Source: Clostridia bacterium
Lineage (GTDB): Bacteria; Bacillota; Clostridia; Oscillospirales; CAG-272
DNA length: 64,000 bases
NCBI GenBank assembly: GCA_017505785.1
Contig: JAFVOQ010000004.1
Span: 733-64,732 of the forward strand
Direction: 5' to 3'
This document shows positions 60,660 to 61,107 of this stretch, in pieces. Under the pieces are notes generated by a model. The model made no database searches. It was not told where the DNA came from and saw nothing but the letters and a program-made list of their open reading frames with translations. A program made the translations under genes and the position numbers. Numbering within the stretch: the first letter of the stretch is position 1; every line of letters begins with the position of its first letter.

Positions 60660-60688
60660 TTGCTTTTTGCAATTTCATGTGCTATAAT
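60660..60688 (+). promoter_or_regulatory. Promoter upstream of the tRNA-Ser region (TTGCTT-17-TATAAT)
   Basis: TTGCTT at 60660-60665, a counted 17-nt spacer, and TATAAT at 60683-60688. Confidence 0.6.
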
Positions 60689-60731: not shown

Positions 60732-60960
60732 GGAGAAGTACTCAAGTGGGGACGTTTGCGAGCGCTGCCGGTGGCGGATGAAGGAAGGCGAACGAGTGTG
60801 CAGCCTGTCCTCGGCTATCGCCGAGCACTGCAAGTTTGCCTTTGGCAAACATTGCGCGTCAAAATTTGGCGAAGCGAACAGCGAGCAACAAATTTTGGGC
60901 ACCGCAACAGGGTCGAAGAGGCGACGCCGACTCCCGAACATTCCTGCAAGATGCTTTTCT
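60732..60960 (+). ncRNA. Structured, non-coding-looking segment carrying a split copy of the tRNA-Ser 5' half
   Basis: GGAGAAGTACTCAAGTGG (60732-60749) matches tRNA positions 1-18 at 17 of 18. GGTCGAAGAGGCG (60911-60923) matches the following 13 nt exactly. The 161 nt between them contain several clean hairpins. No T-arm or 3' acceptor strand is present. Confidence 0.45.
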
Positions 60961-60979
60961 GACAATTTAATATTTTTAT

Positions 60980-61070
60980 GGAGGAGTACTCAAGTGGTCG
61001 AAGAGGCGTGACTCGAAATCTCGTAGGCCGTTAACGCGGCGCGTGGGTTCAAATCCCACCTCCTCCGCCA
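60980..61070 (+). tRNA. tRNA-Ser (anticodon CGA), class II with long variable arm, CCA encoded
   Basis: Manual fold: acceptor GGAGGAG/CTCCTCC, D-arm CTC-AAGTGGTCGAA-GAG, anticodon loop CT-CGA-AA, long variable arm, T-arm GTGGG-TTCAAAT-CCCAC, discriminator G plus CCA. Confidence 0.9.
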
Positions 61071-61075
61071 AAAAA

Positions 61076-61107
61076 GGACTGCCCCCCCTCGTGGGCAGTC
61101 CTTTTTT
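61076..61107 (+). terminator. Rho-independent terminator after tRNA-Ser
   Basis: GGACTGCCC cccctcgt GGGCAGTCC followed by TTTTTT. Confidence 0.85.

What the first reader, a model, noticed from the sequence alone, without database searches (positions are those of the whole stretch)
60732..60960. Duplicated tRNA-Ser 5' half split by a 161-nt hairpin-rich insert, directly upstream of the intact tRNA-Ser
GGAGAAGTACTCAAGTGG at 60732-60749 copies tRNA positions 1-18, and GGTCGAAGAGGCG at 60911-60923 copies the next 13 nt. The break therefore falls exactly in the D-loop. The intervening 161 nt contain nested hairpins (TGCAG..CTCGGC-tatc-GCCGAG..CTGCA, GTTTGCC-tttg-GGCAAAC, CAAAATTTG/CAAATTTTG). No T-arm or 3' acceptor strand follows. 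A TTGCTT-17-TATAAT promoter lies about 45 nt upstream, so the segment is probably co-transcribed with the tRNA. It could be a scar of an element that inserted into an older tRNA-Ser copy, a processed leader RNA, or an unrecognised structured ncRNA that mimics part of a tRNA.
Basis: seen in the sequence. Interest (0 to 1): 0.6.

Follow-up and report, generated by a model that had tools for sequence, protein, structure and literature searches.

The report
Structured repeat lodged in dead tRNA copy
The "insert" that splits a partial serine-tRNA copy is one member of a widespread, strongly folded ~110-base element of gut Clostridia, absent from the RNA-family catalogue, that almost always sits inside a loop of a spare, decaying tRNA copy next to the working tRNA gene.

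Summary
Window 60732-60749 repeats bases 1-18 of the tRNA-Ser(CGA) gene at 60980-61070. Window 60912-60923 continues that tRNA's D-arm. The two pieces are separated by 162 nt (60750-60911).

The insert is not a local oddity. It is a long-form copy of a discrete element, called E here (GGACG...CAACAGG, about 110 nt). A covariance model finds E in:
- 30 of 40 genomes of the genus
- 54 of 151 genomes of the order
- 35 of 200 sampled Clostridia
- 37 places on one Vescimonas fastidiosa replicon

E matches no Rfam 15 family, even at E<=10. Its fold has strong covariation support: 94% of cells paired, 25 of 29 pairs with double changes, and four further long-range pairs.

E nearly always lies in a D-, anticodon-, variable- or T-loop of a truncated copy of the neighbouring tRNA, on that tRNA's strand. 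At least 12 tRNA species are involved. The junction follows a GG|...GG| rule.

In the window, E carries an extra 53-nt two-hairpin expansion and sits in the tRNA's promoter-driven leader.

Best reading: E is a selfish structured element that survives only in redundant tRNA copies. How it moves is unknown. Y1 transposase and reverse transcriptase do not track its copy number. A host RNA function remains a live rival.

The parts
60660..60688 (+). Sigma-70-type promoter of the transcription unit: TTGCTT, 17-nt spacer, TG-n-TATAAT
   Evidence: Read. The homologous promoter lies in front of the same tRNA in G002, G009, G010, G008, G003, G021 and G014. In 25 of 38 leader-type loci a promoter scoring at least 10 of 13 lies upstream of the fragment, and none lies between E and the tRNA.
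60732..60749 (+). 5' fragment of a dead tRNA-Ser(CGA) copy: acceptor 5' strand, D-stem 5' strand and D-loop up to G18G19
   Evidence: 17 of 18 bases identical to 60980-60997. This 18-mer has only two occurrences in the genome.
60750..60804 (+). Element E, 5' domain: a 7-bp P1 (GUUUGC../..GCGAAC), a purine-rich internal loop, hairpin P2 (CUGCC-GGU-GGCGG) and linker GAGUGUGCAGC
   Evidence: Alignments A1 and A2, model R1, covariation counts, and register checked by hand.
60805..60857 (+). Lineage-specific 53-nt expansion with two hairpins (CTCGGC-TATC-GCCGAG and GTTTGCC-TTT-GGCAAAC). It is set in the least conserved position of the internal loop at the base of the 3' domain.
   Evidence: Absent from short-form copies. 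Present only in some copies of this genus: G018:C3, G005:C53, G047:C34 and C94.
60858..60911 (+). Element E, 3' domain: long hairpin P3 (GUCAAAAUUUGG...CAAAUUUUGGGCACCGC) and 3' tail AACAGG
   Evidence: The segment is 91-97% identical to copies in other families of the order.
60912..60939 (+). Rest of the dead tRNA copy: D-loop and D-stem 3' strand (GTCGAAGAGGCG), then a degenerate anticodon-arm remnant (ACGCCGACTCCCGAAC)
   Evidence: Compared with tRNA 60998-61020. The same remnant occurs in G002, G009, G010 and G008.
60940..60979 (+). Spacer up to the intact tRNA (ATTCCTGCAAGATGCTTTTCTGACAATTTAATATTTTTAT), repeated with each unit in relatives
   Evidence: Three tandem units, each with this spacer, in G002:C48.
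60980..61070 (+). Intact tRNA-Ser(CGA), the only gene of this isoacceptor in the assembly
   Evidence: ARAGORN, Rfam tRNA at 53.6 bits, tRNA census of the genome.
61070..61107 (+). Intrinsic terminator of the unit (AAAAAAGGACTGCCC...GGGCAGTCCTTTTTT)
   Evidence: Read. The terminator part of a Thr_leader-like match appears.

Best explanation
The 162-nt insert is a long-form copy of a previously uncatalogued element, called E here. E is about 110 nt long and runs from GGACG to CAACAGG.

E folds on the tRNA-sense strand into two helical domains. Their bases are tied to a short purine-rich linker, so that inside a host stem it forms a three-way junction.

E behaves as a selfish insertion. It lodges just after a GG in an exposed loop of a tRNA gene, in the D-, anticodon-, variable- or T-loop. 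It persists only where a second, intact copy of that tRNA lies alongside. The interrupted copy then decays while E keeps its fold.

In the window, the interrupted copy is the 5' fragment of tRNA-Ser(CGA). It lies between the promoter and the working tRNA. E should therefore be transcribed as part of the tRNA's leader and removed when RNase P cuts the tRNA's 5' end.

Shown here:
- family membership
- the fold
- the ends of E
- the tRNA-loop context
- strand co-orientation with the tRNA
- promoter placement
- patchy distribution

Inferred, not shown:
- that E is mobile by itself
- that the folded form is RNA rather than single-stranded DNA
- that it spreads without an enzyme of its own, by recombination through the conserved tRNA flanks and the GG microhomology
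- RNase P release
For: Family and ends
- BLAST in relatives finds separate multi-copy hits to the two halves of the insert.
- Model R1 finds 1-16 copies in 30 of 40 genus genomes, hits in 54 of 151 order genomes and in 35 of 200 class genomes, and 37 places on the V. fastidiosa replicon NZ_AP023416.1.
- An exact 29-base pattern hits at least 120 species of gut Oscillospiraceae, Faecousia, Vescimonas and Ruminococcus.
- Among 138 unique copies, 108 end in CAACAGG, and about 90% of left flanks end in GG.
- Head-to-tail arrays without spacer occur in G026:C31 and G044:C31.

Fold
- 93.9% of cells are paired, against 71% in shuffles and 33-52% with slid partners. 25 of 29 pairs show double changes.
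- Extra covarying pairs 4-45 and 50-97, and a near-invariant internal loop.

tRNA context
- 62 of 138 copies have an intact tRNA within 400 nt, and 60 of those 62 are on the same strand.
- In other orders the figures are 13 of 20, all 13 on the same strand.
- Flanks are fragments of that same tRNA, joined at D-loop positions 17-20 in 49 cases.
- Anticodon-, variable- and T-loop cases were read.

Dispensability
- G003 (98% complete) and G021 have the homologous promoter and an identical or near-identical tRNA, but no fragment and no E.

Transcription
- The promoter lies upstream of E, not between E and the tRNA.

Safe landing sites
- The genome carries at least 12 E-free tRNA remnants.
Against: - No mobilising enzyme was found. 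Y1 transposase and reverse transcriptase are absent from high-copy genomes. No TnpB or recombinase ORF adjoins E, apart from one copy that lies between two tandem tyrosine-integrase genes.
- The apparently recent burst in G047 belongs to a larger ~400-nt composite repeat that merely carries E.
- In nine syntenic tRNA-Ser(GCU) loci, E is far better conserved than its flanks (0.67 against 0.41 and 0.23), with compensatory changes. Near-invariant unpaired bases are also present. This looks more like purifying selection on a useful RNA than like a fossil.
- Downstream-type copies lie behind the tRNA's terminator, so their transcription is doubtful.
- G-U pairs are rare, about 1%. This is unusual for an RNA.
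- No transcript data were available.
Confidence: 0.5

Rival explanations
1. E is a host-useful structured ncRNA. It is expressed from tRNA transcription units and uses fragments of tRNA as a ready-made expression and processing context. It would act as a protein- or RNA-binding module of unknown role, and its copies would be paralogues kept by selection.
For: - Strong covariation, near-invariant internal loops and junction purines, and a three-way-junction architecture.
- Higher conservation than flanks in syntenic loci, with compensatory changes.
- Same strand as the tRNA in 60 of 62 and 13 of 13 cases.
- Promoter upstream in leader-type loci.
- Same strand as co-directional flanking genes in 12 of 13 cases.
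- Typical copy number is only 1-3 in most genomes.
Against: - Absent from 25% of the genus, 64% of the order and 83% of the class sample, including a 98%-complete congener that has the same tRNA unit.
- Copy number ranges from 0 to 37 or more.
- Downstream-type copies sit after strong terminators with no promoter.
- Tandem arrays occur, as do insertions in REP-like hairpins and inside other repeats.
- The window copy itself departs from conserved positions and carries a 53-nt expansion.
Confidence: 0.28
2. E is a non-autonomous DNA transposon, a MITE or PATE, derived from the ends of an insertion sequence. The parent would move either as folded single-stranded DNA (IS200/IS605 type) or through a GG crossover (IS607 type). 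E would be mobilised in trans by that element's transposase.
For: - Modular build: a 5' hairpin domain, optional internal cargo, and a 3' hairpin domain.
- Insertion directly 3' of a short motif (GG), with the element's own right end repeating it (AGG) and no regular target duplication.
- Tandem head-to-tail arrays.
- Strand bias, 29 plus to 8 minus, on the V. fastidiosa replicon.
- Few G-U pairs.
- That IS607 inserts at GG and IS608 inserts 3' of a tetranucleotide is from my own knowledge of those families.
Against: - Y1_Tnp (PF01797) is absent from the genomes richest in E (G047, G018, G009) and present in genomes without E (G021, G055).
- The two end hairpins are unlike each other.
- No copy was found with the two domains separated by a gene. 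Apparent half-copies are contig ends.
- No TnpB or serine-recombinase ORF lies next to E.
- Elaborate covarying helices around invariant purine loops go beyond what such transposon ends need.
- A GG target alone cannot explain the tRNA-loop specificity.
Confidence: 0.12
3. The split tRNA is a functional interrupted gene. E would be an intron or intervening sequence that is removed to give a working second tRNA-Ser.
For: - The insert sits precisely between G19 and U20, and the flanking tRNA bases are preserved.
- In L282, a nearly full-length tRNA-Leu copy carries E.
Against: - The window copy has no variable arm, T-arm or 3' acceptor strand.
- Host copies in other genomes are visibly decayed, with a broken anticodon loop and mismatched acceptor.
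- An intact tRNA of the same identity always lies alongside.
- There is no group I intron signal in Rfam.
Confidence: 0.02

Closest known systems
Structured intergenic repeat families of bacteria (REP/BIME, pneumococcal BOX, Bacillus cereus bcr1, Neisseria Correia elements)
   Same: E is a short, multi-copy, non-coding unit with a patchy distribution and a copy number that varies between relatives. It has a modular build with optional internal modules, as in BOX A-B-C. It is transcribed with neighbouring genes. Its folds are kept by compensatory changes.
   Different: E has no terminal inverted repeats and no regular target duplication. It forms a two-domain, junction-type fold with invariant unpaired purines, not one long hairpin. 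It spans a whole bacterial class at 70-95% identity. It has a near-exclusive home inside loops of tRNA gene copies. No partner transposase (RAYT or other) was detected.
Intervening sequences (IVS) of bacterial 23S and 16S rRNA genes
   Same: Both are about 100-200 nt of extra structured sequence, set at the tip of a helix of a stable-RNA gene. Both are sporadically distributed and move by an unknown mechanism.
   Different: An IVS interrupts functional rRNA genes and is cut out by RNase III from a stem formed by its own two ends. E's ends do not pair with each other. Its host tRNA copy is dead, and a second intact gene is always present.
tRNA-targeting integrative islands and their att remnants (Williams 2002 scheme)
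   Same: Partial tRNA duplicates lie beside an intact tRNA. The same loci in relatives also carry island junctions in the anticodon loop.
   Different: E lies within the tRNA fragment, with tRNA sequence on both sides, rather than between two att copies. The whole insert is only about 110 nt and has no integrase. The insertion points include the D-loop and the variable loop, which integrases are not known to use (from my own knowledge).
Rickettsia palindromic elements (RPE)
   Same: Both are small structured repeats that insert into genes, including stable-RNA genes, without destroying the function of the locus.
   Different: RPEs are tolerated inside functional genes and proteins. E is found in redundant, decaying tRNA copies and in a different phylum, and it has no sequence likeness to RPEs.
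Orphan Rfam motifs of gut Clostridia (Gut-1, Clostridiales-1)
   Same: These are structured motifs of unknown function known mainly from gut metagenomes. Gut-1 even occurs beside the same tRNA-Ser loci.
   Different: E matches none of them, nor any other Rfam 15 model, even at E<=10.

Membership tests
Any Rfam 15 family | Covariance-model match at or near the gathering score | tested here: not met
   Only the tRNA passes in the window. Nothing overlaps the insert at E<=10. Canonical short-form and T-loop-type copies give only noise at E<=10. 11 further loci give nothing on E at E<=0.1.
IS200/IS605-derived PATE/MITE | A Y1 HUH transposase (PF01797) in genomes where the element is multi-copy | tested here: not met
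   Only 10 of 40 genus genomes have it. It is absent from G047 (16 copies), G018 (11) and G009 (11), and present in E-free G021 and G055.
IS200/IS605-derived PATE/MITE | Insertion 3' of a fixed short motif, without target duplication, with a similar motif at the element's right end | tested here: met
   About 90% of left flanks end in GG. 108 of 138 copies end in CAACAGG. No regular duplication is seen.
IS200/IS605-derived PATE/MITE | Similar subterminal hairpins at both ends, and an autonomous parent with genes between them | tested here: not met
   P2 (CCGCC-GGU-GGCGG) and P3 (GCGGUCGAAAUUU...) are unlike each other. No split copies were found, and apparent half-copies are contig ends.
Classical MITE | Terminal inverted repeats and a fixed-length target-site duplication | tested here: not met
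   The ends GGACG and CAACAGG are not inverted repeats. Flanks show no closing complementarity beyond control. Direct repeats, where present, are 18-70-nt tRNA segments of variable length.
TnpB omega-RNA or IS110 bridge RNA | Encoded at the end of an element, next to the tnpB or recombinase gene | tested here: not met
   The eight longest of the ten same-strand ORFs ending near E were read by eye, without a family search. They look like ordinary housekeeping genes or spurious frames, plus one tyrosine integrase. None is TnpB-like.
tRNA intron (group I, or archaeal bulge-helix-bulge type) | Complete, functional exons on both sides that give a cloverleaf after removal | tested here: not met
   No variable arm, T-arm or 3' acceptor strand follows in the window. 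ARAGORN finds no second tRNA. Host copies elsewhere are decayed.
Retro-element (SINE-like or retron-like) | A reverse transcriptase available in carrier genomes | tested here: not met
   RVT_1 occurs in 4 of 40 genus genomes and is absent from G047 and G018.
Functional structured ncRNA (generic criteria) | A conserved fold with compensatory changes, and conservation above that of neutral flanks | tested here: met
Functional structured ncRNA (generic criteria) | A stable transcript of defined ends | not testable with these tools

The most novel reading that the evidence does not exclude
E is an RNA-level mobile module, possibly catalytic. On this reading it is a small three-way-junction RNA with defined GG-bounded ends. 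It would be cut out of, or joined into, exposed loops of tRNA transcripts by self-cleavage and ligation or by the cell's tRNA repair enzymes. It would re-enter the genome beside the parent tRNA gene. That would account for three things together: its presence in all four tRNA loops, the head-to-tail arrays, and the partial or snap-back tRNA duplicates. It would be a new kind of bacterial genetic parasite of tRNAs.
Probability: 0.08. Interest if true: 0.9.

Novelty: new variant of a known kind. Interest (0 to 1): 0.62.

Why it matters
If the family is real, as the covariation and census indicate, it is one of the more widespread uncatalogued structured elements of gut Clostridia. It is present in roughly a sixth of sampled genomes of the class and in cultured Vescimonas.

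Its habit is unusual. It lives in loops of spare tRNA gene copies, and those copies rot around it. That habit explains many odd "tRNA halves" near tRNA genes that annotation pipelines ignore or miscall.

It also raises a testable question: how can a 110-nt element with no enzyme of its own find tRNA loops?

For this genome, it means that the only tRNA-Ser(CGA) gene is expressed through a ~280-nt structured leader.

Tried and rejected
- Rfam at gathering and at permissive thresholds, on the window and on canonical copies: nothing.
- Earlier scan notes by sequence: no look-alike.
- Literature by topic and by conserved 12-15-mers: nothing relevant.
- IS200/IS605 or RAYT mobilisation: Y1 transposase does not track copy number.
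- Retro-mobilisation: reverse transcriptase is rare.
- Omega-RNA or bridge-RNA idea: no adjacent TnpB or recombinase.
- Autonomous parent with split domains: the half-copies turned out to be contig ends.
- An empty site for the terminator-type copies in G047 and G005: synteny is not kept, so the result is uninformative.
- "Recent burst" in G047 as proof of mobility: rejected, because the repeated unit is a larger composite repeat.
- The general rule "E sits in the loop of a closing stem": flank complementarity is no better than permuted controls, although single cases have such stems.
- Shine-Dalgarno or small-ORF reading of the AAGGAG linker: there is no start codon at the right spacing, and the motif is not universal (GCGAGCGAG in one subfamily).
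- Phage and plasmid collections: one partial phage hit, and only the V. fastidiosa replicon among plasmids.

Full report
**1.

In the window, GGAGAAGTACTCAAGTGG at 60732-60749 repeats bases 1-18 of the tRNA-Ser(CGA) gene at 60980-61070 with one mismatch. The tRNA was found by ARAGORN and Rfam at 53.6 bits. GGTCGAAGAGGCG at 60911-60923 repeats the next D-arm bases.

In the whole 1.69-Mb assembly, both words occur only at these two places. The break lies after G18G19 of the D-loop.

The stretch in between is 162 nt (60750-60911). No variable arm, T-arm or 3' acceptor strand follows.

A TTGCTT-17-TGnTATAAT promoter (60660-60688) lies 43 nt upstream. A strong terminator follows the intact tRNA (61070-61107). 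Rfam 15 has nothing for the insert, even at E<=10.

**2. The insert is a member of a large family.**

BLAST of the locus against 40 relatives gave many separate hits to the two halves of the insert, several per genome, in the genus and in other families of the order.

Reading those loci showed a discrete unit. I call it E: GGACG...CAACAGG, about 110 nt. It has:
- a 5' domain
- a 3' domain that comes in two sequence variants with the same shape
- in a few copies of this genus only, a 53-nt two-hairpin expansion between them

The window copy is such a long form:
- 5' domain, 60750-60804
- expansion, 60805-60857
- 3' domain, 60858-60911

A covariance model built from 11 short copies gave this census:

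| Sample | Genomes with E | Copies or notes |
|---|---|---|
| Genus | 30 of 40 | 1-16 copies; two in the own genome |
| Order | 54 of 151 (35 of 97 genera) | 1-12 copies |
| Class Clostridia | 35 of 200 | 1-7 copies |
| V. fastidiosa MM35, 861-kb replicon | one record | 37 places |

An exact 29-base pattern hit at least 120 species, all gut Oscillospiraceae, Faecousia, Vescimonas, Ruminococcus or unnamed Eubacteriales MAGs.

No Rfam model matches canonical copies at E<=10. No paper in the library holds its conserved 12-15-mers.

**3. The fold.**

On 87 copies aligned to the model:
- 93.9% of pair cells are standard pairs. Column shuffles give 71%, and slid partners give 33-52%.
- 25 of 29 pairs show changes on both sides.
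- Several pairs have four or five pair types.

The alignment was fitted to the model, which favours it. The slid controls and the variety of pair types still make the helices secure.

Mutual information found further pairs that I had not modelled: 4-45, 6-43, 49-98 and 50-97. The last is G-C in 59 copies, C-G in 12 and U-A in 6. It also showed a near-invariant internal loop, G51 C52 against A95 A96.

Both ends of E are therefore tied to the short purine-rich linker between the two domains. Set in a host stem, E would make a three-way junction.

G-U pairs are scarce. There are 19 among about 1,700 pairs in the well-aligned helices, against 5 A-C. The tRNA-sense strand is therefore the one that folds. 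The data do not say whether it folds as RNA or as single-stranded DNA.

The window copy keeps a 7-bp P1, P2 and P3. It departs in the internal loop of the 5' domain and carries the expansion. It is a divergent member (61.6 bits, against 100-135 for canonical copies).

**4. Where E lives.**

This is the striking part. Among 138 unique full-length copies:
- 62 have an intact tRNA within 400 nt, and 60 of those 62 are on the same strand.
- By my estimate, a random site would have a tRNA that close about 2% of the time.
- 72 have a BLAST-detectable tRNA-derived flank.
- In 49, the left junction is at tRNA positions 17-20.

In other orders of Clostridia, 13 of 20 loci have a tRNA nearby, and all 13 are on the same strand.

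Reading the loci shows that E sits inside a loop of a truncated or degenerate copy of the neighbouring tRNA:

| Loop | tRNA species |
|---|---|
| D-loop | Ser-CGA, Ser-UGA, Pro-UGG, Pro-CGG, Pro-GGG, Leu, Arg, Thr |
| Anticodon loop | Met, Pro-UGG |
| Variable loop | Met |
| T-loop | Ser-GCU, Trp, Glu |
| Just after the T-stem | Leu-UAA |

The own genome's second copy (contig C59, 227-338) is of the T-loop type, behind tRNA-Ser(GCU).

The junction rule is constant. The left flank ends in GG in about 90% of copies. E ends in CAACAGG in 108 of 138. The T that follows the GG in the intact tRNA is kept or lost.

Head-to-tail arrays without spacer exist. Other contexts occur too:
- REP-like hairpins in Vescimonas
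- a ~400-nt composite repeat in G047 and G005
- a site between two integrase genes

**5. Dispensable and co-transcribed.**

G003 (98% complete) and G021 have the homologous promoter directly in front of an identical or near-identical tRNA-Ser(CGA). They have no fragment and no E anywhere in the genome.

In 25 of 38 leader-type loci, a strong promoter lies 30-50 nt upstream of the fragment. The stretch between E and the tRNA scores at background.

The window's tRNA-Ser(CGA) is the only gene of its kind in the assembly. It must therefore be expressed through this ~280-nt leader. RNase P should free the tRNA. This step rests on the established role of RNase P and was not shown here.

Downstream-type copies, by contrast, lie behind the tRNA's terminator with no visible promoter.

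**6. What it most likely is.**

The following point to a discrete selfish insertion that can settle only where an intact copy of the tRNA remains:
- fixed ends
- arrays
- copy number ranging from 0 to 37 or more
- patchy distribution from genus to class
- occurrence in at least 12 tRNA species and in every loop
- absence from homologous promoter-tRNA units in G003 and G021

The interrupted copy then decays.

tRNA remnants, which would offer harmless landing sites, are common here. The own genome has at least 12 without E. Relatives show 5' halves left by islands that crossed over in the anticodon loop.

I could not find what moves E:
- Y1 transposase and reverse transcriptase do not follow its copy number.
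- No TnpB or recombinase adjoins it.
- No split parent was seen.

I therefore infer that E spreads with its tRNA flanks by homologous recombination. tRNA sequence is conserved across species, and direct repeats of 18-70 nt of tRNA bracket the insert. New tRNA hosts would be gained through GG microhomology. The palindromic, snap-back-like broken ends of many host copies hint at replication or repair accidents.

This mechanism is the weakest part of the account.

**7. The main rival.**

The main rival is that E is a useful RNA. Evidence for this:
- In nine syntenic tRNA-Ser(GCU) loci, E is 67% identical on average, while its immediate flanks are 41% and 23%.
- Three-way compensatory changes occur in the basal helices.
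- Invariant unpaired purines are typical of RNA tertiary motifs.
- Where both neighbouring genes run the same way, E shares their strand in 12 of 13 cases.

These facts can also arise if only fold-competent copies propagate and if insertion is strand-specific. They keep the functional reading at roughly one in four.

An IS-derived MITE acting as DNA fits the GG rule and the modular build. It fails on the enzyme and on the unlike ends.

An intron reading fails because the host copies are dead.

**8. Limits.**
- No expression data were available.
- Most carriers are draft MAGs, in which repeats break contigs, so copy numbers are floors.
- The covariation alignment is model-fitted.
- The synteny of the "empty" sites extends only over the promoter-tRNA unit, because upstream genes differ.

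**9. Verdict.**

The finding is real and is more than a local scar. It led to an uncatalogued, class-wide structured element with a peculiar home in tRNA loops. Its nature as a family is well supported. Its mode of spread and any function remain open.

Noticed in passing
L092:58-134 (-), L089:551-625 (-), L073 about 590-700: Gut-1 RNA (RF01706) lies right after the terminator of tRNA-Ser(CGA) in relatives. It scores 90.9 bits in L092 and is sub-threshold in L089. Gut-1-like GTGAAAT hairpin repeats follow the tRNA-Ser(GCU) remnant in G005. Its position at tRNA 3' flanks suggests it may belong to island ends.
   Followed up: no
L008:1391-1519, L034:1007-1136, L038 (- strand) 1116-984: A second conserved insert of about 130 nt ('Y') follows a tRNA-Ser(CGA) 5' half that is cut in the anticodon loop, and it abuts the intact tRNA in G014, G009 and G008. 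Its sequence runs ACAAACCGAC..GGTTGGTATACAGTTTTCTATCAAAATTCCGACAACTGAATATTT. It has the same architecture as E but is a different element at a different tRNA position.
   Followed up: partly
L034:1137-1304, L086:1681-1860, L135, L140, L144: tRNA 5' halves (Ser-CGA, Pro-CGG) end in the anticodon loop and are followed by island-like DNA. In G136 an intact tRNA-Ser(CGA) of different sequence lies further on. Islands in this group seem to bring the 5' part, or a whole tRNA, rather than the usual 3' part.
   Followed up: partly
L078:1-560 and 2250-2655, L130, L132-L134, L137, L138: G047 and G005 hold a ~400-nt composite repeat bounded by CGATAAATCAAAATTT. It carries E between two terminator-like hairpins (TTTTTTGCCCnnnnGGGCAAAAAA and AGAGGAGGCG..CGCCTCCTCT). 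There are at least 8 near-identical copies in G047.
   Followed up: partly
L085:1612-1634, L086:1610-1632, L092, L093, L090; L088:1465-1500; A3 rows G037, G058 and G086: The broken ends of the host tRNA copies are often palindromic. ACATAACGGGGC|GCCCCGTTCG occurs in five genera. The Met-type copies carry a reverse-complement copy of the D and anticodon region next to the sense copy. These look like snap-back or template-switch junctions.
   Followed up: no
L066:1501-1607 (-): In G042:C18, one E copy lies in the short gap between two tandem tyrosine-integrase genes, with no tRNA fragment around it.
   Followed up: no
genome contigs C14:25922-25968, C28:80082-80099, C38:6323-6342, C53:9076-9108 and others: The own genome holds at least 12 tRNA remnants of 16-47 nt without E, mostly 3'-end pieces. 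These include a 33-nt piece of tRNA-Ser(CGA) on contig C53 and a 47-nt piece of tRNA-Pro(GGG) on C14. They are probable att scars of past integrations.
   Followed up: no
NZ_AP023416.1 (L150-L162): The 861-kb 'plasmid' of Vescimonas fastidiosa MM35 carries housekeeping genes (mutS2, ptsH, rimP-nusA) and dense REP-like repeats (GGGCGGGCGACCGCAAGGGTCGCCCCTAC, GGGCCGATG..CATCGGCCC). It looks like a second chromosome. E copies there show a 29:8 strand bias.
   Followed up: no
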